Source: Ignavibacteriota bacterium (lineage in GTDB: Bacteria > Bacteroidota > Ignavibacteria > UBA10030). From it: a stretch of 64,000 bases of DNA. The stretch is taken from assembly GCA_003170475.1 (NCBI GenBank), contig PMZI01000016.1, forward strand, positions 9,165 through 73,164, in the 5' to 3' direction. This document shows, piece after piece, positions 14,502 through 48,871 of this stretch. The notes below the pieces were generated by a model, which was given only the letters and a program-made list of their open reading frames with translations, was not told the origin of the DNA and did no database searches. Made by a program: the position numbers and the translations under genes. Position 1 is the stretch's first letter. The number at the start of each line of letters is the position of its first letter.

Positions 14502-14503
14502 AG

Positions 14504-16212: not shown

Positions 16213-16220
16213 CCTTTTCC

Positions 16221-34169: not shown

Positions 34170-34170
34170 C

Positions 34171-35073
34171 ATGCCCGAACTTCCCGACATCACGATGTAC
34201 GTCGAAAGCCTTGAATCAAGAATCAAAGGGGCGCGCCTCGAAAAGATCCGGCTCGGCAATACGTTCATTCTCCGCACGTTTGATCCGCCGCTGATCGCTG
34301 CTTCGGGCAAGACGATTCAGAGCGTCGAGAGGATTGGGAAGAGAATTGTTCTTTCCCTCGAGGATGAGCTCTTCATCATCATCCACCTCATGATTGCAGG
34401 GCGGTTCCACTGGAAGAAACCCTTGAGCAAAATCCCCGGGAGAGTCGGACACGCGGCATTTGATTTTCCCGATGGGACGCTCCTGCTGACAGAGGCCAGC
34501 ACGAAGAAACGGGCATCGATGCATCTGGTCATTGGCCGTCCGGGATTGGCGACATTCGATCGCGGCGGCTTGGAAATCCTTGGCTCCAGCGTGGATACTT
34601 TCAGCGCTGCATTGATGAGAGAGAATCGAACACTCAAACGCGCCCTCACCGATCCCCGACTTTTCAGCGGCATAGGAAACGCCTATTCAGACGAAATTCT
34701 TCATCGCTCGAGGCTGTCGCCGCTCACACTTACTCAGAAGCTCACCGATGAAGAAATCACCCGACTCCATGCAGCAACGACAGCAACCATGAAAGAATGG
34801 ATCAAGCGCCTGCGAGAAGAAACTGGCGGCAGTTTTCCAGAGAAGGTGACCGCGTTCCACGAGGAGATGGGTGTTCACGGGAAATTTGGGAAGCCTTGCC
34901 CGGTTTGTGGAACAAGAGTGCAGCGAATTGTCTATGCGGAGAATGAGTCCAACTACTGCCCGAGATGCCAGACAGGCGGAAAAATGCTTTCTGACCGATC
35001 ACTCGCCAGATTGCTGAAGGATGACTGGCCGAAGACAATCGATGAACTCGAGCAAAGTGAACTGGGAAAATAG
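34171..35073 (+). CDS. Fpg/Nei-family DNA glycosylase/AP lyase
   Basis: N-terminal 'MPELPDITMY' (catalytic Pro2/Glu3). C-terminal zinc finger 'CPVCGTRVQRIVYAENESNYCPRCQ'. H2TH region in the middle. Confidence 0.75.
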   Translation: MPELPDITMYVESLESRIKGARLEKIRLGNTFILRTFDPPLIAASGKTIQSVERIGKRIVLSLEDELFIIIHLMIAGRFHWKKPLSKIPGRVGHAAFDFPDGTLLLTEASTKKRASMHLVIGRPGLATFDRGGLEILGSSVDTFSAALMRENRTLKRALTDPRLFSGIGNAYSDEILHRSRLSPLTLTQKLTDEEITRLHAATTATMKEWIKRLREETGGSFPEKVTAFHEEMGVHGKFGKPCPVCGTRVQRIVYAENESNYCPRCQTGGKMLSDRSLARLLKDDWPKTIDELEQSELGK

Positions 35074-35080: not shown

Positions 35081-36013
35081 TCAGAAGCGAATGGTGAGCC
35101 GTGCAGTCGGGACAAACTCGACGAAGTCCACGGACCGAACGACCGGCTGGAGGTGTGCTTCGAGTTTGACCTGATTGTTGAATTGAGCAGCGCTCCACGC
35201 TGCATCGAGAGCCGAAAGAAAATGATTGACGACGAGAAGGACTGACCCCGTTGTCGCGATGTTGTAGTAATCATTTGCCTTCCCGCGCATGGCAGCGTAG
35301 TCCAGAAAGCGCTGCGACACATCGCTGCTCAGGATTCTTTGCGGAGTCATGACACCGGCATCATCCCATCCGGCGGAAAATTGCGGATACTTTCCGATGA
35401 GTTCATAGTATTGCTGCAACGGCCGATGCGGCAACAGATGCGTAAAACCGTTGCCTGACATTTGCGCGATCCGGCTTTCGATGGCATTCAACACGTCCCA
35501 GTTCACACGATCCCAAGGCTGGAGATTTTCTGTGCCCGGAATCAACCACCCGGTGAAGCTCGTCACATCCGGATTGAGCTTCGCGGAGTTGTCCTGAATC
35601 CACTGCGCATAACGGACAACGGAGTAGTGGTCATCGGCATAGTTCTGGAACAAGGTTGTTTGCCTGTCGCCCTTGGAAGAGTACACTGCATGCACGGCCC
35701 AGAGTCCGGCCTCCGCAAGGATGAATCCGCCTGCACGCCAATAGCTCTTCGTATAGAATTCCCCTGCACCCGGAACAGCGAGTGAGAGAACGCCTGCAAG
35801 CAGGCCCGATTTCTTTCCCTGGTCAGCCTTCACAAGGACGGTATCCTTCAATTTCATCGCCCCGATGAATGCCAGCAAATCGAGTCGGTCGTTCCCCGTG
35901 AGCAGAACTGTTCCTGAGGAGTGCATGTTCCCCGCGACCTCTTGTTGACTCTTCGCGGAAACAACGATCAGAAGCATTGAGGCCATCACAACAAATGCTG
36001 CCCTGCTCTTCAT
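35081..36013 (-). CDS. secreted/membrane hypothetical protein (last gene of the 42994->35081 operon)
   Basis: Signal peptide, two hydrophobic segments (GLLAGVLSLAVPGAG..., GGFILAEAGLWAVHAV), then a soluble Trp/Tyr-rich domain. Confidence 0.35.
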   Translation of the reverse strand: MKSRAAFVVMASMLLIVVSAKSQQEVAGNMHSSGTVLLTGNDRLDLLAFIGAMKLKDTVLVKADQGKKSGLLAGVLSLAVPGAGEFYTKSYWRAGGFILAEAGLWAVHAVYSSKGDRQTTLFQNYADDHYSVVRYAQWIQDNSAKLNPDVTSFTGWLIPGTENLQPWDRVNWDVLNAIESRIAQMSGNGFTHLLPHRPLQQYYELIGKYPQFSAGWDDAGVMTPQRILSSDVSQRFLDYAAMRGKANDYYNIATTGSVLLVVNHFLSALDAAWSAAQFNNQVKLEAHLQPVVRSVDFVEFVPTARLTIRF

Positions 36014-36017
36014 TCCA

Positions 36018-39000
36018 CTACCTCGCTCTGTAGGTCAACTGTTGAAGATTCCGGCTGAAGGGATTCATCTCGAAGTCAAATAGAATTCCAAGATAGAATC
36101 TCCATTCTTTTCCGTAGGCCACATCGGTATTGTTGAACGTCCGGTTGAAACGGTCGAAGCCATATGCCCCTGAGAAAAAGATCCGTGTCGGATACTGGTA
36201 AAACGAGAACGACTCCAACCTGAGTTCAAAGCCCGCGTCCTTCTTCCACGTCCCCACATCCGGAGTTGGGCCTGTCCACGCGTCACCATAATCGGCGAAG
36301 ACCGAACCATACAACTTCGTGAAGTAGAATTGGAGGAACCGGAAGTTTAGTTTGCTCACGAGCGGGAACCGATACGCGGCACTCACAACGGCGAGGTCGT
36401 TCCCACCCAGTCCATAAAACGGGTACCCGCGCATTCCGATGAACCCGCCGCCGTAGAAATCAAAGAAATCGTCAACCCGCTTCCCCAACGTACTCGCACC
36501 ATGCACCGACAGTGTCAAAGTGTGTTTGTCGATGGGCAAAGAGAGATGCTCATTCCAGAGAACTTCTACCGTGTGGAAACTCGGCTTGGTGTACTGCGGC
36601 ACCAGCGTGCCGTTCTCGATGCTAAACTCCCCGTCTGGATTGAACTTGTTGAACGCGAAGGAGTATCGCAGCGTAAATGTGCGTCCTATCGGATTGATGT
36701 CACGATCGAGATTCGGTACAATGCCATCGTGGGTCAATTGTGCGGACAATGTGTTGCCGACGAGATAGACATTCCGGAATCCGGGAGAATCCCCGGAACC
36801 AGGTATGTAGAATGAACCGATGTCCGCATTGTATCTGCTGAGTGAATAGCGAAGGGCCAGCTGTGTGTGATCGTCAAAGATGGTTTGTCTGAGCCCGAAA
36901 TCGAATTCAAGAAGGTTATAGACCACTTCCGTCTGGAGCTCGTACTGCTTGTCGGTGAACAACGGGATCGTTGCAGTGGTTTGTCGCGAGATATTATAAA
37001 TCTCAAGAGAAACAGCCGGAGCGAGTCCAAGCTGATAGAAGATCGGGAAAGCGTCGCGATACTCGACGATGGCAAACAAGTCACGTTCCAGCTGCCGATT
37101 GATGACTGCACCTCCAAACAAGGAAAGCCTGTCCAGTACGTCACTGGACGTGAAGTAGAATCCAGGACGAATCACGTCAATCCCTTTATTATGGGGATTG
37201 TAGTTGTCCACACGCAAAATCGGAATGATCGACAGACTCGTGAACCTATTCGAGTATGGTCGAGCTTTCAAAGGGGCAAGTTTTGATGTGTCGTCGGGAG
37301 CGACGGTAACCGTTCCTGCCGCCGGGGTAGTCACAGCAACGGGAGTTCCATCGACCCGATCCATTTTCTTCAGTTGCCACAGCGGCACATCGCGCCGAGG
37401 AGGGATCGCGAGCGCAGAAGGATTCTTGAGCAGGTTGATCTTGAAACCCGTCGACGTATATGAACTGAAGGCAAAGTCCCCATGCCCGTTGACCGCGGGC
37501 AAAAATGCCCCACCGAGGACATTCGTAAGTTGAGACCTCCCACCCGCCTGGAGATCGAGCGAATAGAGATTGAATATGCCCCCCTCAGCAGAGGCATAGA
37601 TGAGTGAGCGCCCGTCGTGTGAGAAGACAGGATTCCGCGCATCGAACCCGCTCACGACGACTTTGAATCCAGTTCCGTCTTCGTTGACGACTGCCACGGA
37701 TTGCCTATCGTCTGCCGAGAAGCCAAAGGTGATCATGGTACCATCCGGCGACCACTGCGGCGTATACACTTGTTCACCGTTGACGAACTTCGTTACCTGT
37801 CGAACGTTTTTCCCGTCTGCATCACAAGTCCCGATGTTTACAGTGCCATCACTACCGGATGCAAAAACGATTTTCTTTCCGTCCGCTGACAGGTTTGGAT
37901 TCCACGCCCGCAGTCCGTGCGTGAGACGCTCCTCGCTCCGTTTGTCCAGATCGTACCGATAGAGATCATACAGCTTGGCCCAGAAACCGTTCTTACGGCT
38001 AAGCTTTGAGTAGTAAAGATAACGTCCATCAGGAGAAAACGACAGCGTAGAACGCACATTGAGGTCGAGATCCTTCGACGTTTTTGATTCAAAATCGTAG
38101 AGGTAAACCGAACTCAAACCAAAATAGTCCTGGCCTTTGTTGGATACATAGGCAAGTTTTTTCCCGTCCGGAGTAAATGCAGGAAACGAGTTGCCAAACC
38201 CTTCTTTTTCGATCAACTCGCCTTCGACGCGGGCGGGTGCAATCTGGTTTCCAACGCTCTTGTACTGCTCAATCTTGGCCGACTTCCATCGTTGATACAA
38301 TTCTTCCCCGGAAATCCCTAACACGGCTTCAATGGCACCATCGATGGTCACTCGGGGCAGACTGCTGAGTGCTCTAGAGATTTCCTTAAGCTTCTCTGCA
38401 CCATAGGTCTCTGCAATGTATGAGACGATGGAGAATCCCGCATTGTACGAAGACTCGTTGCCGAGGCTCGTCTTGCCGAAAACAGCCATCTCCTCCCACG
38501 TCAGGGGATTACCCTCAAGCATGTACATCCTCAGAATCATATCCCGATGCGAGTCCCAGTAATCATAGGTGAAGCTCGGGTGGTTGTATTGCGCAACTCC
38601 CTCGGCAAACCATGCGGGAACAACAAATGCGGAAAACGGATAGGAGACGATGGTATTCGGATAGCCGTAGAGCACATCCGGCCGGCGTTCTGATTCGTAC
38701 CCCAGCCATTGGAAATAGACGGCGGGAAATGTCCGTCCCAGCTTCATCGCTGTCTGAATCTGAACAATGTGAGTGAACTCGTGAGAAACGACATCACGGA
38801 TCCACGGATGAGTTCCGCGAAGTTCGAAATCGAGAGCCGGCGCCCAGAGCTCAATCTTGTTGTCGTAGAAATAGGCCGCGCCGTTCGAATAGTCTTCGTG
38901 GTCGCGGATCACCAGGCTCACCTTGCTGTCGGGCTCATGCTGATACAATTGTGTGATGGGACCATAGACGCCTTCTGCAATATTCGCGATTTCGCGGGCC

Positions 39001-39152
39001 GATCGTTCCTCTCCGGAGTGAAAGTGGACTAGAAAATGCGCCGACTCAATCGTTTTCCAGTTCAGATCGGGACGCGGAAAGTCATCATCCTGCGCGATCG
39101 CAAGACCGAGAGTGAGCAAAACGAACAGTACGGAGAGGAGGAGCTTCTTCAC
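36018..39152 (-). CDS. 1044-aa secreted protein: N-terminal HExxH zincin-like domain + TolB/PD40 beta-propeller repeats + C-terminal beta-barrel-like domain
   Basis: Signal peptide. 'VVSHEFTHIVQ' HExxH. PD40-type repeats (FSPDGRYLYYS, PQWSPDGTMITFGF, NPVFSHDGRSLIYAS...). The C-terminal ~400 aa alternate in aromatic/hydrophobic residues like an outer-membrane barrel. Confidence 0.5.
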   Translation of the reverse strand: MKKLLLSVLFVLLTLGLAIAQDDDFPRPDLNWKTIESAHFLVHFHSGEERSAREIANIAEGVYGPITQLYQHEPDSKVSLVIRDHEDYSNGAAYFYDNKIELWAPALDFELRGTHPWIRDVVSHEFTHIVQIQTAMKLGRTFPAVYFQWLGYESERRPDVLYGYPNTIVSYPFSAFVVPAWFAEGVAQYNHPSFTYDYWDSHRDMILRMYMLEGNPLTWEEMAVFGKTSLGNESSYNAGFSIVSYIAETYGAEKLKEISRALSSLPRVTIDGAIEAVLGISGEELYQRWKSAKIEQYKSVGNQIAPARVEGELIEKEGFGNSFPAFTPDGKKLAYVSNKGQDYFGLSSVYLYDFESKTSKDLDLNVRSTLSFSPDGRYLYYSKLSRKNGFWAKLYDLYRYDLDKRSEERLTHGLRAWNPNLSADGKKIVFASGSDGTVNIGTCDADGKNVRQVTKFVNGEQVYTPQWSPDGTMITFGFSADDRQSVAVVNEDGTGFKVVVSGFDARNPVFSHDGRSLIYASAEGGIFNLYSLDLQAGGRSQLTNVLGGAFLPAVNGHGDFAFSSYTSTGFKINLLKNPSALAIPPRRDVPLWQLKKMDRVDGTPVAVTTPAAGTVTVAPDDTSKLAPLKARPYSNRFTSLSIIPILRVDNYNPHNKGIDVIRPGFYFTSSDVLDRLSLFGGAVINRQLERDLFAIVEYRDAFPIFYQLGLAPAVSLEIYNISRQTTATIPLFTDKQYELQTEVVYNLLEFDFGLRQTIFDDHTQLALRYSLSRYNADIGSFYIPGSGDSPGFRNVYLVGNTLSAQLTHDGIVPNLDRDINPIGRTFTLRYSFAFNKFNPDGEFSIENGTLVPQYTKPSFHTVEVLWNEHLSLPIDKHTLTLSVHGASTLGKRVDDFFDFYGGGFIGMRGYPFYGLGGNDLAVVSAAYRFPLVSKLNFRFLQFYFTKLYGSVFADYGDAWTGPTPDVGTWKKDAGFELRLESFSFYQYPTRIFFSGAYGFDRFNRTFNNTDVAYGKEWRFYLGILFDFEMNPFSRNLQQLTYRAR

Positions 39153-39161
39153 AGTGTGTAT

Positions 39162-39845
39162 TTAGATGGTGAAATCACGACGCGTGACCTGATCTTTGTC
39201 GACGGTGAGGGACACTCCGCGATGGACATCGAGATAAAGCTCAAGGCCAATCGAGGGTGTAATCCGATAGTTTCCAAAAAAATACGAATCAACACTGCTA
39301 AAGCGCGGCACAGGATAGAATCCCACAGGAAGATTTTCATCCGGGATAACGTAGTGACCCAGAGAATCCGTCACAGCGGTGATGGCGCCATCAACGACGA
39401 CAGTATACGATGCCCGCGAAACGTTGTTCATGCTGAACTCTACTGTATAGACTCCGCTCGGAGCCAAATTGCCGAGCCCGTCATGTTTGTCCCACTCAAA
39501 ATCCATGGTTCCCACGGGTGAGTGCCCCGCGAACAGTACAGCAACGACCGTCTGACTTCGGCTAAACACCTGAACGCGGGCAGTCTTCGCAGAATCATCT
39601 ACATAGAAGGAAGGAGAAGGCAGATGAAGAGTATCAACGAATTCGTAGTCGTACCACAATCCCACCCGAACCCCCTTGAGGGGAACTCCGAGATGATCCG
39701 TGATGTAGCCTTCAACTTGATAACCCACTATCGGTTTTTCCGCAGGAGCCACATACGGCAGATCCCGTTCGCAACCCACCACACCTCCCAGAAGGAGAAC
39801 AAGCATCGTACAAAGCGGAAATCCCCTCACCATCCGAGCCCTCAC
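39162..39845 (-). CDS. lipoprotein, unknown function
   Basis: Lipobox LLLGGVVGC. 4-nt overlap with the upstream gene. Confidence 0.4.
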   Translation of the reverse strand: MRARMVRGFPLCTMLVLLLGGVVGCERDLPYVAPAEKPIVGYQVEGYITDHLGVPLKGVRVGLWYDYEFVDTLHLPSPSFYVDDSAKTARVQVFSRSQTVVAVLFAGHSPVGTMDFEWDKHDGLGNLAPSGVYTVEFSMNNVSRASYTVVVDGAITAVTDSLGHYVIPDENLPVGFYPVPRFSSVDSYFFGNYRITPSIGLELYLDVHRGVSLTVDKDQVTRRDFTI

Positions 39846-42800
39846 TTTACGACTGCAATCTTGATGATCGCCACGTGGCTGCCGCTCCCCCCCGTCGCTT
39901 CAATACGCGCAAGGTACACTCCGCTCTGCATACCGGAAACATCCCACGTCACTTCTCCGTCGAGGCCAGCTTTGGACTGCCCGTGAAGCTCTGTGATCTT
40001 CATCCCCGCCAGATCGAACACTTTGATGGAGATGGACGCATCCTCAGGCGTGTAGTAACGGATCTGCGTTGATGATCCGCGAACAGGATTCGGCCAGTTG
40101 TAGACTCGATCTGAAGGCAGATATGCCGTTGAGGGAGTAACAGTCACCGGAATGAGTGGATCGTTGCTTGAATGGCGACCGTCCCTGAGATATTGCGACC
40201 AGGAAAAACTCTGCGCGCCGTACGGGTTATTGATCTCAATCGCCTGGAGTACACCCGAGGTCGTCATTCCTGCAATTCCAATGTTTGCGGCGGAACTTAG
40301 AAAAGAAGCCACAAGCGTTCGGCCGATCGGCGCGAATTGAACGGGGAATCCTTCAACAGCACCGCCGGTTCTATCATACGCCATGATGTCCCCAGTGCTC
40401 ATTGCGACAAGAATGTCAGGTTTTTTATCTCCGTTCACATCCCCCACAAGCAGGTTTCCGGCAAATGTCTTTGTCGTTGGAGCAGAAACCGGGAAACCGG
40501 CCAGCGATGCACCGAGACGATTGAGAGCATAGATCTTGTCCTCAGTCACAAACACGATATCCTTCTGACCGTCTCCATCAATATCTGTGGAGAGCAGATC
40601 CATAATGGCACCGGAGGCGATGGTCGTTTCGAGGAATTTTTGTGATAGATCACGGCTGAACGCAAGAACTTTCTTCCCGCCAAGTTGAGCAACCGCGACC
40701 AAATCCACAGGCGGTCCCTGCACGCCGACCGCAATCCATGGGAGGCTCGAATCGCCAAGTGCGACAGAGGATTGTCCGCTGTAGAGACGACCGCCGCATG
40801 TGAAGTACAATGCCGCCGGACTTGACAGCGAAGGGGAAGAAAGTTGTGTCAGCGAACTGACAGGGCTCGATGAAACGACGATTTTGTTCTGCAGAGCGCC
40901 GCCGTAGGAGTAAGACCAGACCGTGCCGCGGCTGGTTCCGACCACGATAGAGGATGCAAGGCTCAGATCAGCAAACATCGCCGGAGTCGTGATACGGTCT
41001 CCGAGTGGAACAGCCGAGCTTCTGACGCTGTCGATCTGTGCATCCGGGGTTTTGGAGTACGCGTTCAGAATGTAGAGGGTACTGTCTTGCGAACCCGCAA
41101 TGACGATCGAGCTGCCGAGATCTGTCGCTGCGAGAGAGAATCCTCCCCCCTTCGAAAACAAGAGACCGGTCGTATCCTTCGTCTTGCTGCTTCCATCTGA
41201 TCGGAACGCCAGAACAGTACCATCGAGTCCGACGAAAACGGTAGAAGAGACAACGCTCGGCGCTGTGGCGCCCTTCTTTACCGAAAGCCTTCTCGAAAAG
41301 GCCGGGATTCTTTTCACCTGATTGTCGCCGATAACGATGGTGGCTGTCATGTGCGGCGACCGCTTGCTGAATCCACGCGCCGTCACGAGACTCGCCGCTC
41401 CGCTGTAACTCCGGCTGTTCGGATTCGAATTCTGATCGAAGACATTCTTGTAGATATTCAGCGTATCCTTGCCGACGACGTAGAGAACCGCATTCCCGTC
41501 GAACCAGAAATCCAGCGGCCAGCCCAGTTCCGTCCCCGACCCGGGATCGGAGAACTGACTGTAGACGCGGCCGATGTCCTGTGATCCGTCGGCTTCTTCG
41601 AGCGACACGCCGCGATGAGCCGGATCAGCGTTCACGGTATTGTCCGCCATCCCACGCGCAATGACGTCTTCGTCGATATGCCAGATAAGAATACCGCCAC
41701 CGCGAAGCGTATCACTTTGAAGCGCATACCCCGGAAGCGCCCAGTCGAAATCCTCGACGTCTATGACCGAGCCGGAGATGGAACTCACATCCGCGTAATT
41801 GAACCCGTTGCTGTCTGTCGTAAACGATCGGGTGAAGGTCGAATTTCCTTTTCGCACGGTCAGCCGCTGGCCATTCTGATATGGATCACGGCTTCGGTTT
41901 TCAATAAGAAAGTACTCACGATCCGTGATGGGAATCTTGTAGACCGTGTCCCGGCCTGTCTTAAGTCCGACAGCCGGCAAGGAGATCGTGGATGTTCCGG
42001 CCGGCACCACAATTGGTGTCACCCATCCGAGAAAGATTTTTTCCCAGGCGGATGGTTCCGGCGGGAACAACCCTGAATAAAAGCTCAGGTTTCCCGCAGG
42101 ATCCATTAATCCGAAATCGCCGATGCCGGCCAATCCAGTCTTCGTGTCAAAGAGATCGGGTAATCCGAGATAGCTGCCGAACGAATTTGCAACCAAGCCA
42201 TTGATACTTTCCTGAATCGTATCGGCCGATAATCCGGATGTAATAATCCGTGACTCCGTTTCCGGCAGGAGGAGCGTATTGGTGATTTGGAATGAGCCTT
42301 TGCTGACAGCAACACCGGCGAAACTCGCATCGCCGAGATACTTGCGAAAGGTCGAGAGATTGAATGTAATGGATGGAATATCGTACGGTGCAGGATCATA
42401 GCCGTAGCGCGACACAACATCGATATCTCTTCCGATGCCGGCGTGGAAGATGATGAACGCGTCATACTTCGCAAACTGGATGGACGGATAGAGTGAATCC
42501 GCTCGATGCCAACTCTCCGTGACAAGGTTTGCAAGAAGTCTGTCATTGCTTCCGTCTTTCGGCGGAGAGTACCGGGCCATCGTATCTGAAAGCGTGATGA
42601 CGCGACCGAACACCTCACCCTTGATATTCAGCTTGCCGTTGGAGACTTTCCGGAAGTAGTTCGAAAGGAAAACCAGTTTGTAAGCGAAGTAGGCTGAGTC
42701 GTGCGGTGCCGGATCGATTGCGTTCGGCCATACCGACCCGTCAAGCTGAAATCGACCCGCGCCCGAGGTCAAAGGATCTTTGTCAGTCTGGAAATCAACC

Positions 42801-42994
42801 ATCACCGCCAGAACCCTCAGGGTATCCTGGCTCCCGAGGGTTCGGACGAACATGTTGGATGCGGATTGATCCACTCGGGCGTGCTGGAGGCTCATCACTG
42901 CCCCGCCGACCTTTGCCATTTGCAGAGGTCGCACCTGACCAAATGCCGAGGTGCCGCAAAGAATGAGCCAAACAACGAGGCGACGTACTGGCAT
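39842..42994 (-). CDS. 1050-aa secreted FG-GAP/VCBS-repeat protein with C-terminal T9SS sorting domain (T9SS cargo)
   Basis: Signal peptide. FG-GAP-like Ca-binding loops 'DIDGDGQKDIVFV' and 'GDVNGDKKPDILVAMSTGD'. C-terminal 'NWPNPVRGSSTQIRYYTPEDASISIKVFDLAGMKITELHG...GEVTWDVSGMQSGVYLARIEA...IKIAVVK' is a type-A T9SS CTD. Confidence 0.65.
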   Translation of the reverse strand: MPVRRLVVWLILCGTSAFGQVRPLQMAKVGGAVMSLQHARVDQSASNMFVRTLGSQDTLRVLAVMVDFQTDKDPLTSGAGRFQLDGSVWPNAIDPAPHDSAYFAYKLVFLSNYFRKVSNGKLNIKGEVFGRVITLSDTMARYSPPKDGSNDRLLANLVTESWHRADSLYPSIQFAKYDAFIIFHAGIGRDIDVVSRYGYDPAPYDIPSITFNLSTFRKYLGDASFAGVAVSKGSFQITNTLLLPETESRIITSGLSADTIQESINGLVANSFGSYLGLPDLFDTKTGLAGIGDFGLMDPAGNLSFYSGLFPPEPSAWEKIFLGWVTPIVVPAGTSTISLPAVGLKTGRDTVYKIPITDREYFLIENRSRDPYQNGQRLTVRKGNSTFTRSFTTDSNGFNYADVSSISGSVIDVEDFDWALPGYALQSDTLRGGGILIWHIDEDVIARGMADNTVNADPAHRGVSLEEADGSQDIGRVYSQFSDPGSGTELGWPLDFWFDGNAVLYVVGKDTLNIYKNVFDQNSNPNSRSYSGAASLVTARGFSKRSPHMTATIVIGDNQVKRIPAFSRRLSVKKGATAPSVVSSTVFVGLDGTVLAFRSDGSSKTKDTTGLLFSKGGGFSLAATDLGSSIVIAGSQDSTLYILNAYSKTPDAQIDSVRSSAVPLGDRITTPAMFADLSLASSIVVGTSRGTVWSYSYGGALQNKIVVSSSPVSSLTQLSSPSLSSPAALYFTCGGRLYSGQSSVALGDSSLPWIAVGVQGPPVDLVAVAQLGGKKVLAFSRDLSQKFLETTIASGAIMDLLSTDIDGDGQKDIVFVTEDKIYALNRLGASLAGFPVSAPTTKTFAGNLLVGDVNGDKKPDILVAMSTGDIMAYDRTGGAVEGFPVQFAPIGRTLVASFLSSAANIGIAGMTTSGVLQAIEINNPYGAQSFSWSQYLRDGRHSSNDPLIPVTVTPSTAYLPSDRVYNWPNPVRGSSTQIRYYTPEDASISIKVFDLAGMKITELHGQSKAGLDGEVTWDVSGMQSGVYLARIEATGGSGSHVAIIKIAVVK

Positions 42995-43037: not shown

Positions 43038-44180
43038 TTAATTCGTCGGCGTCACTTCAGTTGGTTGAGCTGAAATGCCCCCCCAAGAAATGAGCAACGT
43101 GAATCGCAGCGTATCGCCGAGAGGATGGTTCTGTTCGGACGTGCTGATGTAGCTGAAGTCGAACCCGTAAACGTCGTACCGGATGCCTGCACCGAAGGTC
43201 ATGAACTTTCGATTGCCATATGCCGGATCCTCATAGAAATACCCGCCCCGCAATCCAATCCACCGAGGTGAACCGTACCAGTATTCAAATCCGACACTGG
43301 TGTCAAACTCGCGTAACTCTTCCCGGAATGGCTTGTCGGTCCATGACGTGAAGATCGCTTTGTAGAATGGGTCGCTCGTCCCGTCGCCACGGTTTCGAAC
43401 CAGCAGTTTGTTCACATCGATAATTGCGGTGAGGTTGTTAAACTGACTCGAGATGATCTTGTACCCGATACCAAGACGCAGATTCGTCGGTAGAGGATCC
43501 GCCTGCGCTCGATCGATGTAGCTCATCTGAGGTCCAAGATTGGAGAGATCGAATCCTGCGCTGAAATGTTCTCCAATGTCCAAACCGGTGAAAGGAATTT
43601 CTAGCGTTGTCGGCTTGTAAAGCATACCGACATCGAAACTGAAGTCGGACGAGACGCCTTTTCCCTGCTCTTCGGCAGCTCCAAACGGCGACAAACGACT
43701 GTAGATGAATCGTCCGTTGAGCCCGATGCTGAGCACATCCGACAACTTGGTGGAATACCCGGCGGTGACTGCAAACTCATAGGCCTTGAAGGTCTCCAAG
43801 ACCGTTGGATCGTTCACGGTTCGGTTGAATGTTCCAAGATTCAGGTAAGTAATGCTCGCGCCGATTGTCCCATCCAATTCCGGCATCTGGCGACGATAGG
43901 CGAGATAATCGATGAAAAGGTCGGAGAGGTTGAATGCCGGCAGCCAGTTGGCGTGCGAAATGCTGATTTCCGAACCTTCCTGAAATGCAAGGCCTGCGGG
44001 GTTCCAGTACAGCGCCGTCGCGTCATCCGCAAGAGCCACCCCGGCTTCTCCCATCCCACCGGCGCGGGAGTTTGGCGCGATCAACAGAAACGGAACAGCA
44101 GACGTTGAGACCTGAGCATTCAGCATTTGGGTCCCTGCGAGCAGTAGCACAACCGCACACCCAATGAGTTTCTTTACCAT
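43038..44180 (-). CDS. porV: type IX secretion system outer-membrane shuttle protein PorV (PorV/PorQ, FadL-like barrel)
   Basis: RBS AGGAGG 9 nt before the ATG at 44180 (MVKKLIGCAVVLLLAGTQMLNAQ). N-terminal 'SAVPFLLIAPNSRAGGMGEAGVALADDATALYWNPAGLAF' is the family hallmark. The gene lies immediately downstream of porU, as in Bacteroidota. Confidence 0.65.
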   Translation of the reverse strand: MVKKLIGCAVVLLLAGTQMLNAQVSTSAVPFLLIAPNSRAGGMGEAGVALADDATALYWNPAGLAFQEGSEISISHANWLPAFNLSDLFIDYLAYRRQMPELDGTIGASITYLNLGTFNRTVNDPTVLETFKAYEFAVTAGYSTKLSDVLSIGLNGRFIYSRLSPFGAAEEQGKGVSSDFSFDVGMLYKPTTLEIPFTGLDIGEHFSAGFDLSNLGPQMSYIDRAQADPLPTNLRLGIGYKIISSQFNNLTAIIDVNKLLVRNRGDGTSDPFYKAIFTSWTDKPFREELREFDTSVGFEYWYGSPRWIGLRGGYFYEDPAYGNRKFMTFGAGIRYDVYGFDFSYISTSEQNHPLGDTLRFTLLISWGGISAQPTEVTPTN

Positions 44181-44329
44181 GACAAACATCCTCCTAGAAA
44201 AATGGAATCTCCGAAACAGCTCAATCGGAGTAAGTAAGTTACTCGCTTTTAACCTAATTTTCAACCGACTCCAGAGCCATCCAGGAAGGAGACTCCGGGA
44301 AGAAACCAAATACTTTTGACCTACATGGG

Positions 44330-47300
44330 TTATCGAAGGACTGCCAGTTTTCCTATCACTTCGCTTGTTGATGTTCGGTCGAGCGATTTTGCGATCACTC
44401 GGTACAAATACACGCCATTCGCCAACTCACTTCCGTCACGGTCCCGCCCATCCCATGGAATCTGCACAAACCGATCGACGATGGATGACGCCTCAAGAGT
44501 CTGAATCAATCGCCCGGCAACCGTGTACACTTTGATTTCGATGTCGATCGGATCACTGGAAGTCCGTTGAAATGTGAACGTCGTCGTGCGCGCAAAGGGA
44601 TTCGGGACATTGAAGACATTATAAAGAGAAAGCTGGGACGACGCCCGGACTTCGAAGAACGCTTCGGCAGATGACGAGTTGTTGTAAATGTCCCATGCCT
44701 TTACAGAGATCGTGTGACGTCCTTCAGGAAGAGCGGTGAACTGATAGCGAATCTGTCCGCTTTGATAGGTGTCGAGGTTTCCGCGATAGGAACCCGTCAG
44801 GTCAATCGTATTCTTGGAAGCATCGAGAACCGCTTCGAGCTTGTGGCCGATCCCTGCCGTCGACGTATTGATGCCGCTGCTGTCGGCAAGATCGACGATC
44901 ATCGTCGCATCCGGGGAAATGACTCCGCCGGCGTGAGCTGTCTGGTCGTCGAAATAGATCTTGACGCTCGGGCCGGTCGTGTCAACGACCGCGACTGACG
45001 TTCCCGTGATCGAGAAGTTTTCGGTGTATCCAACAGCATCTGTTGAATCGTTGGACGCGTAGAGCGAGATCCTCGAGCGATCATTTCCGTAGGAGACATC
45101 CTTTGGAATGGGGAATGTCCCCTGCACCTGACCATTGCGTACGGATACCTGACCGCGGTAAATGAGGCTGCCGTTCACCACGAAGGAGTAGTCTCCCCAC
45201 TCGGGAACGAGCACTTTCCTTTTCGAATCATACACCTCGAGTAACGACTGGCCGCGGAGAGAAATCGGGGTTGATCCGTCGGACTTTTTCACGCTCCCGA
45301 GGACCTTGACTTTCGAAAGCGCCCCTGCGGTGACGAGCGATGTCGCTGATTGTCCGTTGACGCTATCGATGGACACAATGCCCCGCGGAACTGCGAGCCG
45401 CATCGTAGGATCTCCCAGAAGGTGATGCTTCTGGTCGTTCGTGCTGTTCAGCGTTTGCTTCGTCTGCCACATCGCGTCCCCAAGCCGCACCGGCTTGCCC
45501 TGAGCATCCACTTTGAGAAGATTGTCGTAGAGTGCCCAGTTCAATATTGCATTGTCACCTGAATACACAACCCGGTCTGGTGTCACCTCGGCAATGGCAC
45601 CGCGGTCGGACATCAACAGCAATTGCTCCCCGCCGCTTGCATCAGAGGCGCTGGTTGGAAAATCATAGCGGGCAAAATCACAAGTCGCCGCGACCAGAAA
45701 AAACAGCTTTCCTTTGTTGTTGAGGAGGGGGAAATCCTGATCAACCGAGAAGACCTTCTCATGCGCCCATTGCTGGGTGTTACCGTGGCCGGTCCAGTTC
45801 AGGATCACCGTGCCTGTGTTGATCGCTTCATCAATCGCCTGGTTCGCCGTGGGCTTCGTGCGTCCCGTTGTTGTATTCACAGTAGGATATTCGACTATAA
45901 AGATCTTGTCCTTCGTGAAACTGTCGGATGTGTGTATTTGCGCCAGCACTTCCGACTGGTCCGTATGGATATTGCCGTCATCCCCTGTCGAAGTCAGTCC
46001 GTCATCTGCAGCAAACGTTATCCGGTTTCTCCACGAGTCGAATACTGGATTGGATTCATAAGAGAGAATCTTGTTGACAACTGTTTGTGCATCGGTGAGC
46101 GACCTGATTGGCAGGCGGCCAATCTTCATCGAAATCGTCTGAGTGTTGGGATCAAGGAAAACAAAGTAATCATCGCTGGCCAGTGTGAGAATCTGGATAT
46201 TCGATTCCAGCGTCTCATACGGCGGGACCCAGTTCGTCGCGCTCGTCTTGATGTTCTTGTAGTCATAGTTTCCAGCCCCGAAGAGAAGGACATACTGCGG
46301 CTGGAGCTTCCACGCGGTCTGTGTGTATTTCAGAAAGTCGCGGATTGCCATCGGATCCGGGTTCCCGGAAGAAAACTCATTGTAGACCTGATCGAGATTG
46401 ATGACCGAAACCGTCATTTGATCGGTCTGTTCGCGATGGGTCTTCAAGCGTTGCGCTTCGCTGGAAAAATCCGGCGGCGTCAGGATGATGAAATCCGCTC
46501 CTGCGGTGCTGCCGTGAAGATTTGAATTCGAAATTCGTTTCACATTGGCCGCCGTTTTGTACCCCTTCGGACCCGCCACAAAAAGTTCACGGATGGAACC
46601 GCTCGTCTGGCCCAGCTGAAACCGCACGATAGATGCGTCTGCTGCATCGAAGGCAAGGTTGGTAATTTGCTTCACGGCGTTATGCTGCGTCACATCGAAG
46701 ACGTAGACATCTCTCGATGAGAAACCCGACGCCTCATAGTTGATCACAGCGTTTGTGTCCGGCGAAACAATGAGCAAGGAATCGTTCACTGCCGCGAGAC
46801 GGCTGCGGAAGAGAATCTCGAACCAATCCAGCCAACCCAGTGCGGCCTGATTGCCCGTTCCGAACTGAATTCGCAGCAGACTTCGGTCATTGGGGAGCGC
46901 TCCGATACGATTGAACTCGAACATCGGAGCCCGATAGGCATATTCTTGTTCGATGGAGGACAGGTCGACGGAATACATCTGCATCGGCAATCCCAGGGGC
47001 TGGCCGTTCTCGAGCACAGTGAAAGTATCTGCGGATGCAGATCGGCTATACATGGCAAACCGATACGTTATCGGCTTCGTAGAAACGACACCGGAAAGAC
47101 TGTTTGTGAAGGACTGATAGTTCTGATAGAAGTCAAATGATTCTCCCACCCACTCGCGGCCAGAGTTTACGAAATTGACCTTCTCATGTTCGACGAAAAT
47201 CTTTGCCTGAGTGTCCGTCGGTTTGTAGCCGCCGGCAACGCTTGTGGAAGAAACTGAATCCATGTTCTTCCCGCGTCCAGATCCGCCGAAGGTCAGGAAG

Positions 47301-48316
47301 TAGACATTTGATTCGGTGTAATGGTTGAGATAATGATTGAAGGTCTTGTCCGTCGGCGAATAGTTCCATCCCCGCGGGGATTTTCCGTAGAAGAGCACGA
47401 AGTCATCCGCATCCAGAACACCGTTTCCGTTTTTGTCCACCACCAGGCGAGGAATTTCCACATTTCCGTTTGGCCGCGCGGCATTCAAGTCTTCCGGAAG
47501 TTCCTGCCCATCGTTGCCGAATATCCTGATGGAATTAATGTTGCCAATCGCACTGGAAGAGATACCGGACTTCGTGAGAAATGTCTGATCGATTCGATAG
47601 ATACCAGTCTCCGTAACTTCCATCCTGTACCAATCCCCTTGAGCCAGCGGCGAATCGGATGCAAGGATCTGAGCTACCGTCGCTTCGGTCTTAAGCAGTT
47701 GCGAAGGGAATCGATTCTTCAAGAACGCTGAAGCGACCGGTGACGTGGAGCGACTGCCAGCGAAGTCAATTCGGACGACCATTCTGCGAAAGACCCGGAC
47801 TTCGTTTCTGCTGAGCGAGAACTGCACTGGATACATCTTCAATGTCCCGAGGAGCACACCTCTGGAGAGGCTGACATTCGTCACTTCGACACTCTGGTTC
47901 GGAACTCGGTCGGCAACGAGGTATTTCGGCTTCGGCGAAGAATAGACCGGACTCAGACCGAATCCCTTGAGAGCCTGCAACGACGGACGAGTCGCTGCCT
48001 TTGTCGATGGAAGGTCGTCGAAGTCCTGGGCAATCACCTCCACTGAATACCGGCGCGACGGCAATTGAAGCAGCACCGGCCGGAACGGCACAAGAGGCGA
48101 ACCCGGCTCACTCGGAACGAACACGGCGCCCTGGAACTCAAAGCGTGTGTATTTGACGCCATCCGTGCCGGACACAACCGAATTGGCATAGTGCGGCGTG
48201 AACTCAATCACGATCGAATTCGGGGTCTCGCTGATAACGCGAAGATCAGCCGGCGTTTGAGCGCCAGCGCTCGCAACAACCAGGAGACTGAGCAATATGA
48301 ACGGGATAGGTCTCAT
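44330..48316 (-). CDS. porU: type IX secretion system sortase PorU (gingipain/C25-family peptidase-like) retaining its own T9SS CTD
   Basis: 1328 aa from the signal-peptide Met (MRPIPFILLSLLVVASAGAQ). C-terminal 'VPNPFARTTTFTFQRT...IEIKVYTVAGRLIQTL...WDGRDRDGSELANGVYLYRVIA' is a T9SS CTD. Size, the CTD and the porU-porV synteny support the call. The catalytic Cys/His were not identified by eye. Confidence 0.55.
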   Translation of the reverse strand: MRPIPFILLSLLVVASAGAQTPADLRVISETPNSIVIEFTPHYANSVVSGTDGVKYTRFEFQGAVFVPSEPGSPLVPFRPVLLQLPSRRYSVEVIAQDFDDLPSTKAATRPSLQALKGFGLSPVYSSPKPKYLVADRVPNQSVEVTNVSLSRGVLLGTLKMYPVQFSLSRNEVRVFRRMVVRIDFAGSRSTSPVASAFLKNRFPSQLLKTEATVAQILASDSPLAQGDWYRMEVTETGIYRIDQTFLTKSGISSSAIGNINSIRIFGNDGQELPEDLNAARPNGNVEIPRLVVDKNGNGVLDADDFVLFYGKSPRGWNYSPTDKTFNHYLNHYTESNVYFLTFGGSGRGKNMDSVSSTSVAGGYKPTDTQAKIFVEHEKVNFVNSGREWVGESFDFYQNYQSFTNSLSGVVSTKPITYRFAMYSRSASADTFTVLENGQPLGLPMQMYSVDLSSIEQEYAYRAPMFEFNRIGALPNDRSLLRIQFGTGNQAALGWLDWFEILFRSRLAAVNDSLLIVSPDTNAVINYEASGFSSRDVYVFDVTQHNAVKQITNLAFDAADASIVRFQLGQTSGSIRELFVAGPKGYKTAANVKRISNSNLHGSTAGADFIILTPPDFSSEAQRLKTHREQTDQMTVSVINLDQVYNEFSSGNPDPMAIRDFLKYTQTAWKLQPQYVLLFGAGNYDYKNIKTSATNWVPPYETLESNIQILTLASDDYFVFLDPNTQTISMKIGRLPIRSLTDAQTVVNKILSYESNPVFDSWRNRITFAADDGLTSTGDDGNIHTDQSEVLAQIHTSDSFTKDKIFIVEYPTVNTTTGRTKPTANQAIDEAINTGTVILNWTGHGNTQQWAHEKVFSVDQDFPLLNNKGKLFFLVAATCDFARYDFPTSASDASGGEQLLLMSDRGAIAEVTPDRVVYSGDNAILNWALYDNLLKVDAQGKPVRLGDAMWQTKQTLNSTNDQKHHLLGDPTMRLAVPRGIVSIDSVNGQSATSLVTAGALSKVKVLGSVKKSDGSTPISLRGQSLLEVYDSKRKVLVPEWGDYSFVVNGSLIYRGQVSVRNGQVQGTFPIPKDVSYGNDRSRISLYASNDSTDAVGYTENFSITGTSVAVVDTTGPSVKIYFDDQTAHAGGVISPDATMIVDLADSSGINTSTAGIGHKLEAVLDASKNTIDLTGSYRGNLDTYQSGQIRYQFTALPEGRHTISVKAWDIYNNSSSAEAFFEVRASSQLSLYNVFNVPNPFARTTTFTFQRTSSDPIDIEIKVYTVAGRLIQTLEASSIVDRFVQIPWDGRDRDGSELANGVYLYRVIAKSLDRTSTSEVIGKLAVLR

Positions 48317-48871
48317 AGAAACGAAAAAAGCCGAACGAGAGGAACATGCCTTCTCATCCGGCCACATAGTACGGGAGAACACCGAATTTGAAAAAGGCTT
48401 GTTCACGTATGGAACTTAGCGTCTGAACAGCAATGCTGTCGACCTGCTCAGAAACTAACCTTTAACAAACTCGCTATACGCTCTCCTCATCCTGAAATTT
48501 GATGGTGTAATATAGAAACGTTCCAAGCGAGAGTCAAGACCTTTTTGAGAACGCCTGCTTACGATCAATCGATTCCCAGTTCCCCCGCTGGAGTCTGACC
48601 GCTGAATCGTCATGGCTCTCATGCGCAGAGTGACAAGAGACAACCCGGGAATTCCGCTGAGCCTCTGCAAGCCGTGGCACGACAGTGTCGACTCAACCGA
48701 TGGGTCTCAGAAATTCCCCAGTTCAGAAATCCAAACACGGAGAAGTCGTTTCTAACTCAACAGAGATGAGTATTGGCGACGCCGAGCAACCAAATCCTTT
48801 TTTGATTGCGTATCTGGCAAATCTTGAGTAAATTTACTCGGTTTTCTACTATTTTCCTCAAATGGGGCTCA

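What the first reader, a model, noticed from the sequence alone, without database searches (positions are those of the whole stretch)
35081..42994. Four-gene secreted-protein operon: T9SS-sorted FG-GAP giant, lipoprotein, HExxH-PD40-beta-barrel giant, small envelope protein
All four genes are co-directional and tightly packed (4-nt and 10-nt junctions, 5-nt gap). The first product is a 1050-aa Ca-binding FG-GAP/VCBS protein exported and surface-anchored via a T9SS C-terminal domain. The third is a 1044-aa fusion I do not recognise as a described family. It joins a zincin-like HEFTH motif, a TolB-type PD40 propeller and a C-terminal 400-aa region with outer-membrane-barrel character. Operonic linkage suggests a dedicated surface proteolytic or substrate-capture complex, or a self-contained secretion/maturation pair, riding on the T9SS whose core genes porU/porV sit right next door (43038-48316).
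Basis: partly seen in the sequence, partly recalled or inferred. Interest (0 to 1): 0.55.

Follow-up and report, generated by a model that had tools for sequence, protein, structure and literature searches.

The report
T9SS-linked pseudoprotease and protease-bearing Omp85 operon
The four genes are real and form the tail of a six-gene porU-porV operon, conserved across several bacterial phyla, that links the type IX secretion sorting proteins to a dead protease on the cell surface, an uncharacterised outer-membrane barrel carrying a live protease, and a small unknown partner.

Summary
Four tightly packed minus-strand genes lie at 35081-42994, directly behind porV and porU.

- **Gene 1** is more than an FG-GAP protein. 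It scores 822 bits against NCBIfam NF052323, "T9SS-dependent M6-like inactivated metalloprotease". Its HExxH motif is lost in all about 150 relatives examined.
- **Gene 4** is a helical protein with a weak DUF5683 match. It ends in a beta-signal-like hairpin and has no structural match.

I found no published description of the linkage. PorV lies directly upstream of M6i in 67 of 67 metagenome loci and PorU in 46 of 47. The Omp85-zincin follows M6i in 72 of 74 Ignavibacteria species and in Calditrichaeota, KSB1 and Marinimicrobia loci.

My best reading is an outer-membrane module attached to T9SS sorting. By precedent from other Omp85 proteins, the protease would face the periplasm rather than the surface. 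This mechanism is inferred, not shown.

Interest is moderate to good: the families are known and the module appears new.

The parts
44330..48406 (-). porU, the T9SS sortase (C25-like, with its own C-terminal sorting domain). It is the first gene of the conserved cluster. Gene callers use a 1345-aa start near 48367.
   Evidence: NF033707 T9SS_sortase scores 974 bits against a cut-off of 420, and Peptidase_C25 has E 1.6e-88. PorU lies upstream of PorV in 54 of 56 species loci and 46 of 47 metagenome loci.
43038..44180 (-). porV, the outer-membrane shuttle barrel (380 aa from M44). The listed ORF extends to 44309 but is over-long.
   Evidence: NF033710 scores 292 bits against a cut-off of 250 and Pfam PorV has E 2e-38. 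The signal-like hydrophobic stretch is at residues 39-63 of the long ORF. Callers give 380 aa. PorV lies directly upstream of M6i in 62 of 62 and 67 of 67 loci.
39842..42994 (-). M6i: a T9SS-dependent, M6-like inactivated metalloprotease (1050 aa). It contains a signal peptide, an M6-like domain, an FG-GAP region and a type A C-terminal sorting domain.
   Evidence: NF052323 scores 822 bits against a cut-off of 600, aligned over residues 45-1050.
42146..42190 (-). Degenerate metal-binding motif of M6i, ANSFGSYLGLPDLFD (residues 269-283). The HExxH is replaced while the following LGLPDLFD is kept.
   Evidence: No HExxH appears in about 70 species loci or in 80 metagenome loci. LGLPDLF is almost invariant.
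40400..40627 (-). FG-GAP repeats of M6i with two Ca-loop-like motifs, DIDGDGQKD (804) and DVNGDKKPD (852).
   Evidence: FG-GAP_3 has E 3e-7 over residues 804-863. The motifs are located.
39845..40096 (-). Type A T9SS C-terminal sorting domain of M6i (residues 967-1050).
   Evidence: Por_Secre_tail has E 5.5e-7 (Pfam) and TIGR04183 has E 1.4e-7.
39162..39845 (-). Lipoprotein with a FlgD-Ig-like domain (223-227 aa). It is a lineage-specific insert found only in the Ignavibacteria-type clusters.
   Evidence: The lipobox VVG-C is at residues 22-25. FlgD_ig has E 3.5e-8. It is detected in 44 of 74 species loci and is absent from the six distant-phylum loci.
36018..39152 (-). Omp85z (1044 aa): a signal peptide, an MA-clan zincin, a TolB-like PD40 propeller, a disordered linker and a 16-strand Omp85 barrel.
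38223..39074 (-). Zincin domain (residues about 27-310) with HEFTH at 124-128 (38769-38783) and the WFAEGVAQY glutamate E184 (38601-38603).
   Evidence: Peptidase_MA_2 scores 34.7 bits against a cut-off of 32.4. H124, E125, H128 and E184 are invariant in 47 sequences, and the equivalent residues are invariant in 16 distant sequences. HExxH is present in 61 of 61 representatives.
37425..38222 (-). TolB-like PD40 beta-propeller (residues about 311-576).
36072..37262 (-). Omp85-type 16-strand barrel (residues about 631-1027). The L6 motif M-R-G-Y is at 907-910 (36423-36434) and F-x-D-x-G is at 952-956 (36285-36299). A beta-signal-like LGILFDF is followed by a non-conserved 17-residue tail.
35081..36013 (-). 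P310: a secreted, mostly helical protein. It has a DUF5683-like PG.GE/Q.Y motif, a conserved polar patch (QQYYE.IGKY.QF..GWDD) and a C-terminal amphipathic beta-hairpin ending in F.
48509..48537 (-). Best sigma-70-like promoter match upstream of porU (TTGACT-17-TATATT). This is weak evidence only.
   Evidence: One search finds 10 of 12 matches. Overall promoter and terminator counts do not exceed shuffled controls, and no convincing internal terminator was found.

Best explanation
**What is shown.** The region is the distal two-thirds of one conserved operon, porU-porV-M6i-(lipoprotein)-Omp85z-P310.
- M6i is a T9SS type-A cargo. It is an M6 (InhA-like) protease fold that has lost its zinc-binding HExxH in every relative examined, while keeping the neighbouring LGLPDLFD motif, an FG-GAP region and the sorting domain.
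- Omp85z is a member of the uncharacterised WD40-like Omp85 subfamily. It combines a 16-strand BamA-type barrel with a TolB-like propeller and a zincin whose catalytic residues are invariant.
- P310 is a secreted helical protein with a C-terminal beta-signal-like hairpin.

**What is inferred.** The products work together at the outer membrane as an accessory module of the T9SS sorting and attachment step.
1. M6i is exported by the T9SS and stays on the surface as a non-catalytic binding partner. PorV or PorU would hold it through its sorting domain, in the way PorZ and PorU are held in Porphyromonas.
2. Omp85z sits in the outer membrane with its zincin and propeller on the periplasmic side, as in every Omp85 protein whose topology has been tested.
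3. There it acts as a membrane-tethered protease, with the propeller gating access. It would process or clear T9SS clients or components beneath the PorV/PorU station.
4. P310 docks to the Omp85z barrel seam through its terminal hairpin.
For: **Identity of the parts**
- Omp85 Pfam hits occur in 32 of 68 family barrels.
- The L6 M-(R/K)-G-Y motif and the invariant D and G of FxDxG are counted. The motif definition is given in PMC12611786.
- The catalytic H, E, H and E are invariant at 55-87% identity and at 25-31% identity. HExxH is present in 61 of 61 representatives.
- M6i lacks HExxH in about 150 loci.

**Coupling of the genes**
- In 80 species-level genomes, M6i is adjacent upstream of Omp85z in 72 of 74. 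PorV is upstream in 62 of 62, PorU in 54 of 56, and P310 downstream in 68 of 71.
- The PorV-M6i-Omp85z-P310 block recurs in Calditrichaeota, KSB1, Marinimicrobia and other distant loci, 6 of 6 examined.
- From the M6i side, PorV is directly upstream in 67 of 67 loci and PorU in 46 of 47.
- Gaps inside the window are 9 nt or less from M6i onward.

**Periplasmic orientation**
- The N-terminal domain of PlpD, an Omp85 protein, is periplasmic, and POTRA domains have never been seen outside the periplasm (PMC11116518).
- TolB is a periplasmic protein (PMC4104836).

**P310 hairpin**
- The hydrophobic-x-hydrophobic-x-F/W C-terminus is conserved across phyla.
Against: - No experiment or complex prediction supports any physical contact.
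- The topology of Omp85z is argued only by precedent. I could not inspect model coordinates.
- Heinz and Lithgow's WD40-like group also lists proteins from Myxococcus, Anaeromyxobacter, Sorangium and Geobacter. These lineages are not known to have a T9SS, so the broader subfamily cannot be T9SS-specific.
- Twelve of 63 M6i loci carry a GT2 glycosyltransferase instead of Omp85z. Omp85z is therefore dispensable next to PorU-PorV-M6i in some lineages.
- A surface M6i and a periplasmic zincin would lie on opposite sides of the membrane, so a direct protease-pseudoprotease pairing is hard to picture.
- Transcription as one unit is inferred from spacing and synteny alone. The promoter and terminator scans were uninformative.
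Confidence: 0.4

Rival explanations
1. **A BAM-like assembly station.** Omp85z would act as an insertase or assembly scaffold rather than mainly as a protease. PorV (a FadL-type barrel) would play the part of BamG, and surface M6i the part of the extracellular canopy (BamH, BamM). P310 would be the periplasmic subunit that inserts a segment at the seam, as BamP does. Together they would form a dedicated machine that assembles T9SS outer-membrane components or exposes cargo on the surface.
For: - The Flavobacterium BAM complex pairs an Omp85 barrel with a FadL-like outer-membrane protein that anchors extracellular lipoproteins. It also has a periplasmic subunit whose loop occupies the lateral seam (PMC12611786).
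- PorV gives a weak hit to the FadL family (Toluene_X).
- The Omp85z barrel retains the L6 and FxDxG motifs.
- P310 has a beta-signal-like C-terminus.
- BamD lies directly downstream of the cluster in the Marinimicrobia locus (TIGR03302, 129 bits).
Against: - Omp85z has no POTRA domain.
- The invariant catalytic residues argue that proteolysis is central to its function.
- BamD adjacency was seen in only one of six distant loci.
- The analogy is architectural only. No homology was shown between M6i and BamH or BamM, or between P310 and BamP.
Confidence: 0.2
2. **Operon hitch-hiking.** Omp85z and P310 would be a general envelope quality-control protease pair, analogous to BepA working at BAM. 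Their function would have no specific tie to the T9SS. They would sit behind porU-porV-M6i only through shared ancestry and co-expression of outer-membrane genes.
For: - WD40-like Omp85 proteins are listed from phyla without a known T9SS.
- Twelve of 63 M6i loci lack Omp85z.
- Heinz and Lithgow proposed periplasmic proteolytic quality control as one possible role of another protease-bearing Omp85 subfamily, the "Metallo" group.
- A BAM-associated M48 metalloprotease, BepA, is a precedent (abstract, plus general knowledge).
Against: - Within the family defined by this barrel, every locus with enough flank has M6i immediately upstream. This holds across at least four phylum-level lineages. Such persistence is unusual for functionally unrelated neighbours.
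- The barrel family is small (126 representatives at E <= 1e-30). In the sampled loci it appears confined to this context.
Confidence: 0.2
3. **The first reader's model.** This is a surface proteolytic or substrate-capture complex. The zincin and propeller of gene 3 would be displayed outside the cell, with the barrel acting as an autotransporter-like anchor. They would cooperate there with surface-anchored M6i to bind and cleave extracellular proteins, perhaps feeding peptides inward.
For: - M6i is a T9SS cargo and therefore extracellular.
- Pairing an active protease with an inactive one is easiest if both are on the same side of the membrane.
- The propeller-plus-peptidase arrangement recalls gated peptidases. 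There are faint DPPIV_N and Tricorn_N hits.
- Heinz and Lithgow left topology open for the protease-bearing "Metallo" Omp85 subfamily.
Against: - The type Vd precedent for secreting an Omp85 N-terminal domain has been overturned. The PlpD domain is periplasmic, and translocation of a folded domain was judged energetically unfavourable.
- The Omp85 barrel lumen is occupied by L6, and the motif is retained here.
- The closest structural relative of the propeller, TolB, is periplasmic.
Confidence: 0.12

Closest known systems
WD40-like Omp85 subfamily (Heinz and Lithgow 2014, Front Microbiol 5:370; PMC4104836)
   Same: The tripartite build is the same: a BamA-type barrel, a TolB-like propeller and an N-terminal aminopeptidase-like zincin, with no POTRA domain. 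Members are listed from Caldithrix, Rhodothermus, Salinibacter, Chlorobaculum and Cloacimonas. These are FCB-type lineages like those found here.
   Different: That paper gives no function, does not discuss catalytic residues, and reports no gene context. Its group also includes proteobacterial and myxobacterial proteins. I could not test whether those belong to the same barrel clade as this gene.
NCBIfam NF052323, T9SS-dependent M6-like inactivated metalloprotease
   Same: Gene 1 scores 822 bits against a cut-off of 600 over its full length. The Calditrichaeota and KSB1 neighbours also pass the cut-off.
   Different: This is a curated name only. I found no paper describing the family or its function.
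P. gingivalis T9SS attachment complex (PorU, PorV, PorQ, PorZ)
   Same: PorU and PorV are orthologous. Like PorZ, M6i is a large propeller-containing protein with a type A sorting domain, encoded with or near the sortase machinery. PorZ delivers A-LPS to PorU (PMC8545088, abstract).
   Different: M6i is not homologous to PorZ. The only match is to the sorting domain, at E 6e-4. No PorQ is present in the cluster. The described complex contains no Omp85 protein and no zincin.
PlpD / patatin-like Omp85 (Hanson et al. 2024, PMC11116518)
   Same: It is an Omp85 barrel carrying an N-terminal enzyme domain. It shows that such a domain stays in the periplasm.
   Different: PlpD has a POTRA domain and a lipase, forms dimers, and has no T9SS context.
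Flavobacterium johnsoniae BAM complex (BamA, D, G, H, M, P; PMC12611786)
   Same: An Omp85 barrel is combined with a FadL-like barrel, extracellular partners and a periplasmic subunit that reaches the seam. The L6 xRGY motif is shared.
   Different: Omp85z lacks POTRA domains and carries a protease. None of the partner proteins is shown to be homologous.
BepA (M48 zincin plus TPR) acting at BamA
   Same: A periplasmic zinc protease works at an Omp85 machine for quality control (abstract; general knowledge).
   Different: BepA belongs to a different peptidase family and is a separate soluble protein, not fused to the barrel.

Membership tests
Omp85 superfamily (PF01103) | C-terminal 16-stranded transmembrane beta-barrel | tested here: met
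Omp85 superfamily (PF01103) | Sequence match to the Omp85 profile | tested here: inconclusive
   The window protein's barrel alone gives no Pfam hit, and a PDB profile search finds nothing. However, 32 of 68 orthologous barrels hit PF01103, best E 1.8e-10.
Omp85 superfamily (PF01103) | Loop L6 carrying the conserved (V/L)RG(F/Y) motif, with a partner FxDxG motif in the barrel wall | tested here: met
   M-R-G-Y lies at 907-910, in the long loop between the 11th and 12th strands. G and Y are invariant and R/K splits 34/33. In F952-x-D954-x-G956, D and G are invariant. The L6 motif is as cited in PMC12611786. The FxDxG motif and the strand numbering are from memory.
Omp85 superfamily (PF01103) | [quoted passage not shown] | tested here: not met
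   There is no POTRA hit. Residues 577-630 are a low-confidence linker. The absence is typical of the non-POTRA subfamilies, so it does not exclude superfamily membership.
WD40-like Omp85 subfamily (Heinz and Lithgow 2014) | TolB-like beta-propeller N-terminal to the Omp85 barrel | tested here: met
WD40-like Omp85 subfamily (Heinz and Lithgow 2014) | Aminopeptidase-like (zincin) region at the N-terminus | tested here: met
WD40-like Omp85 subfamily (Heinz and Lithgow 2014) | Direct sequence clustering with their listed members (for example H1XQ58 or D0MEQ5) | not tested
   UniProt sequences could not be fetched. Calditrichaeota homologues with the same architecture were found.
MA-clan gluzincin peptidase (active) | HExxH plus a downstream Glu as third zinc ligand, all conserved | tested here: met
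   H124, E125, H128 and E184 are invariant in 47 sequences. The equivalents H130, E131, H134 and E190 are invariant in 16 sequences at 25-31% identity. HExxH is present in 61 of 61 representatives. Catalytic activity itself cannot be tested here.
NF052323 T9SS-dependent M6-like inactivated metalloprotease | Full-length score above the curated equivalog cut-off | tested here: met
   The score is 822 bits against 600, over residues 45-1050.
NF052323 T9SS-dependent M6-like inactivated metalloprotease | Loss of the catalytic HExxH | tested here: met
   The motif reads ANSFGS in the window. No HExxH appears in about 70 plus 80 relatives.
NF052323 T9SS-dependent M6-like inactivated metalloprotease | Type A T9SS sorting domain | tested here: met
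   TIGR04183 has E 1.4e-7 and PF18962 has E 5.5e-7. Actual T9SS-dependent export cannot be tested here.
T9SS attachment complex component (PorZ-like role for M6i) | Homology to PorZ, or demonstrated binding to PorU, PorV or the anchor glycolipid | tested here: not met
   NF052228 PorZ gives no hit for the window protein. One relative matches only in the sorting domain, at E 6e-4. Binding cannot be tested. Only the gene linkage supports a comparable role.
DUF5683 (PF18935) | Score above the gathering threshold | tested here: not met
   The score is 20.8 bits against 26.7, and only residues 73-105 match. Some orthologues carry precomputed PF18935 hits. P310 shares the N-terminal motif but is not filed as a member.

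The most novel reading that the evidence does not exclude
M6i, the zincin-bearing Omp85 and P310 would be previously unrecognised, ancestral components of the type IX secretion sorting station across the FCB superphylum. This would be the first functional context for the orphan WD40-like Omp85 subfamily. It would also be the first case of an Omp85 protein, carrying an active protease, working inside a T9SS. M6i would stand in for PorZ in lineages outside the Bacteroidia.
Probability: 0.3. Interest if true: 0.8.

Novelty: new variant of a known kind. Interest (0 to 1): 0.6.

Why it matters
**For T9SS biology.** Type IX secretion has been dissected almost entirely in Porphyromonas and Flavobacterium. 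How cargo is sorted and anchored in the many other FCB lineages is unknown. A module that stays glued to porU-porV from Ignavibacteria to Marinimicrobia nominates three concrete candidates for that missing biology.

**For Omp85 biology.** Hanson et al. 2024 still listed the WD40-like Omp85 proteins as uncharacterised and as an attractive target. A fixed genomic partner set (PorV, a surface pseudoprotease and a small hairpin protein) turns "function unknown" into testable hypotheses about topology, partners and substrates.

**If hitch-hiking is the right explanation.** The finding is then mainly an annotation correction. "Biopolymer transporter Tol" and "PD40 domain-containing protein" are misleading names for an Omp85-anchored zincin.

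Tried and rejected
**Searches that returned nothing useful**
- Pfam on the window's barrel segment alone gave no hit. The Omp85 assignment had to come from orthologues, fold comparison and motifs.
- A PDB sequence-profile search with the barrel alignment gave only a chance hit at E 0.18.
- Promoter and terminator scans did not exceed shuffled controls. They say nothing either way about a single transcript.
- The 258-aa genes downstream of the cluster in the Calditrichaeota and KSB1 loci gave no family hits. Only the Marinimicrobia one is BamD, so I dropped a general BamD linkage.

- The AFDB50 fold library was not available.
I rebuilt it from 20 accepted rows.

**Literature searches.** None of these returned a description of this cluster:
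- PorU2/PorV2
- Omp85 with PD40
- T9SS with Omp85 and DUF5683
- DUF5683 alone
- T9SS in non-Bacteroidia FCB phyla

**Ideas considered and dropped**
- M6i as an active secreted protease is ruled out by the lost metal-binding motif.
- P310 as an inner-membrane protein is unlikely. Only its signal peptide is transmembrane-like.

Full report
**1. Observation**

Searches list four minus-strand ORFs at exactly the reported coordinates:
- 39842-42994 (1050 aa)
- 39162-39845 (227 aa)
- 36018-39152 (1044 aa)
- 35081-36013 (310 aa)

The junctions are a 4-nt overlap, a 9-nt gap and a 4-nt gap. Immediately upstream on the same strand are porV (43 nt away) and porU. A convergent fpg gene ends the array at 35073, and a divergent glycogen synthase gene lies beyond porU.

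An identical copy of the region occurs on an Ignavibacteria metagenome-assembled genome, GCA_003152895.1.

**2. Gene 1 (M6i)**

- NCBIfam places the whole protein, residues 45-1050, in NF052323, "T9SS-dependent M6-like inactivated metalloprotease". The score is 822 bits against a cut-off of 600.
- Where M6 peptidases carry HExxH (from memory), this protein reads ANSFGS. The following LGLPDLFD is retained.
- No HExxH is present at this position in about 70 species-level relatives or in 80 metagenome relatives at 33-80% identity.
- Two FG-GAP calcium-loop-like motifs are present at residues 804 and 852.

Gene 1 is therefore a conserved pseudoprotease exported by the T9SS.

**3. Gene 3 (Omp85z)**

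- *Zincin.* The isolated N-terminal domain passes the Peptidase_MA_2 threshold, at 34.7 bits against 32.4.
  - H124, E125, H128 and E184 (in WFAEGVAQY) are invariant in 47 homologues.
  - The equivalent residues are invariant in 16 sequences that share only 25-31% identity.
- *Model.* An AlphaFold2 model (pLDDT 74, pTM 0.70) shows the zincin helices, a propeller, a disordered linker at 586-625 and 16 long strands.
- *Barrel sequence evidence.*
  - The window's own barrel gives no Pfam hit.
  - Thirty-two of 68 orthologous barrels hit PF01103.
  - The L6 loop carries M-(R/K)-G-Y with invariant G and Y.
  - A wall strand carries F-x-D-x-G with invariant D and G. The L6 motif is as quoted in PMC12611786.
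  - Many homologues terminate right after the ...LFxF aromatic residue.

The N-terminus is a zincin fold and the C-terminus is a barrel, specifically an Omp85 barrel without POTRA domains.

**4. The fusion is not an undescribed family**

- Heinz and Lithgow (2014, PMC4104836) defined ten Omp85/TpsB subfamilies, including a "WD40-like" one. Its members hit BamA for the barrel, TolB for the propeller and M1-type aminopeptidases for the N-terminus.
- They list proteins from Caldithrix, Rhodothermus, Salinibacter, Chlorobaculum and Cloacimonas. They also list Myxococcus, Anaeromyxobacter, Sorangium and Geobacter.
- Hanson et al. (2024, PMC11116518) state that this subfamily is still uncharacterised. 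They also show that the N-terminal enzyme domain of another Omp85 protein, PlpD, is periplasmic rather than secreted.
- A profile of this barrel finds a compact family among 1.84 billion representatives: 126 at E <= 1e-30 and 653 at E <= 1e-3.
- All 61 full-length representatives, down to 28% identity, are colinear with gene 3 and carry HExxH.
- Public names for these proteins ("biopolymer transporter Tol", "PD40 domain-containing protein") are uninformative.

**5. Genes 2 and 4**

- *Gene 2* has a lipobox and a FlgD-Ig-like domain. It was detected only in Ignavibacteria-type clusters, in 44 of 74 loci, and is absent from other phyla.
- *Gene 4 (P310)*
  - It has a signal peptide and no other transmembrane-like segment.
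  - It gives a sub-threshold DUF5683 match restricted to a PG.GE/Q.Y motif.
  - Its confident model is mostly helical and ends in a beta-hairpin.
  - Cross-phylum alignment shows conserved polar motifs and a C-terminus that always reads hydrophobic-x-hydrophobic-x-F/W, like an outer-membrane beta-signal.
  - The 310-aa start is supported by conservation of the N-terminal extension.

**6. Gene context**

| Starting point | Neighbour tested | Result |
|---|---|---|
| 80 species-level genomes carrying an Omp85z homologue | M6i adjacent upstream | 72 of 74 |
| same | PorV upstream of M6i | 62 of 62 |
| same | PorU upstream of PorV | 54 of 56 |
| same | P310 within 1 kb downstream | 68 of 71 |
| Six distant homologues | PorV-M6i-Omp85z order | 6 of 6 |
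| same | P310-like gene downstream | 5 of 5 |
| 80 metagenome loci found from the M6i side | PorV directly upstream | 67 of 67 |
| same | PorU upstream | 46 of 47 |
| same | Omp85z downstream | 51 of 63 |

- The counts use only loci with enough flanking sequence.
- The six distant homologues come from Calditrichaeota (two), KSB1, Marinimicrobia, an unlabelled JGI contig and a contig labelled Acidobacteriota.
- Four of their M6i-like genes were scanned against NF052323. They scored 480-627 bits, and the Calditrichaeota (L085) and KSB1 ones exceed the 600-bit cut-off.
- The 12 M6i loci without Omp85z carry a GT2 glycosyltransferase in its place.

The invariant core is therefore PorU-PorV-M6i. 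Omp85z and P310 are attached to it in most lineages. In every sampled locus with enough flank, bar two, this Omp85 clade sits directly behind M6i.

None of my literature searches returned a description of this association.

**7. Mechanism**

*Shown*
- The identities, architectures and conserved or lost catalytic residues.
- The gene linkage.

*Inferred*
1. M6i is exported by the T9SS and acts on the surface as a non-catalytic binding protein associated with PorV or PorU. This is comparable in position, not in ancestry, to PorZ, which retains its sorting domain and serves PorU (PMC8545088).
2. Omp85z sits in the outer membrane with its zincin and propeller in the periplasm. This follows the rule for Omp85 N-terminal domains.
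3. It is an active, propeller-gated protease that processes or clears T9SS clients or components.
4. P310 docks to the barrel seam through its beta-signal-like hairpin.

I give this 0.4.

*Rivals*
- A BAM-like assembly station, by analogy to the Flavobacterium BamA-BamG-BamH/M-BamP complex: 0.2.
- Functionally unrelated operon neighbours, meaning a general quality-control protease: 0.2.

The main weaknesses are as follows:
- There are no interaction or topology data.
- WD40-like Omp85 proteins exist in phyla without a known T9SS.
- Twelve M6i loci lack Omp85z.

**8. Verdict**

- The finding is real and its anatomy was largely read correctly.
- Two of its "unknowns" are already catalogued families, NF052323 and WD40-like Omp85.
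- The surface-protease interpretation is the least likely of the options.
- What appears new is the deep, near-invariant linkage of these orphan proteins to porU and porV. This nominates them as T9SS accessory components and gives the orphan Omp85 subfamily its first functional context.

Noticed in passing
window 21588-22829 (-): A 413-aa ORF matches the first domain of the T9SS plug protein (PF17116, E 1.1e-10). It is a further T9SS component about 12 kb from the cluster.
   Followed up: no
window 12007-18901 (-): A MacAB-TolC-type efflux cluster: two MacB_PCD/FtsX permeases, an ABC ATPase, a TPR protein, a HlyD-family adaptor and an OEP outer-membrane factor.
   Followed up: no
L129, L136, L138, L140, L142, L145, L152, L153, L156, L158, L160, L161: In 12 metagenome loci, PorU-PorV-M6i is followed by another gene and no Omp85z lies within 6 kb. 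Eight loci (L129, L136, L138, L145, L152, L156, L158, L161) show a 341-369-aa ORF there, and the four scanned (L129, L136, L156, L161) are family-2 glycosyltransferases. This hints at a link between M6i and glycan or anchor synthesis. The lineage is unknown.
   Followed up: partly
L087 13760-14548 (+): In the Marinimicrobia locus, BamD (TIGR03302, 129 bits) lies directly downstream of the P310-like gene. The genes at the same position in the Calditrichaeota and KSB1 loci (257-258 aa) have no family match.
   Followed up: partly
window 43038-44309 and 44330-48406 (-): The mechanically listed ORFs for porV (423 aa, TTG) and porU (1358 aa, GTG) are longer than the genes called on identical public contigs (380 and 1345 aa). 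The hydrophobic signal segments begin at residues 39 and 25 of the long ORFs.
   Followed up: yes
L002 7365-9311 (NCBI copy) and L004/L027 6843-9942: On the NCBI MAG contig the otherwise identical M6i gene is called as a 648-aa fragment. In another MAG it is split into 213-, 183- and 599-aa ORFs. These are probably assembly or frameshift artefacts, or possibly pseudogenisation.
   Followed up: no
window: N-termini of genes at 48406, 44180, 42994, 39152, 36013 (-): Five of the six cluster proteins have a Gln right after the predicted signal-peptide cleavage site (AGA-Q, LNA-Q, AFG-Q, AIA-Q, KS-QQ). The exception is the lipoprotein. Q23 of P310 is invariant. This fits the Bacteroidota habit of N-terminal Gln, which is from memory and was not tested.
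   Followed up: no
window 36018-36071 (-): Omp85z has a 17-residue tail (EMNPFSRNLQQLTYRAR) after the beta-signal-like LGILFDF. It is not conserved, and many homologues stop within 1-3 residues of the aromatic residue.
   Followed up: partly
window 30196-35073: Housekeeping DNA-repair genes flank the cluster: uvrA (958 aa, minus strand) and fpg (300 aa, plus strand, convergent with P310). An ECF sigma factor with a DUF4097 protein lies beyond them. These come from the annotation of the identical contig.
   Followed up: no
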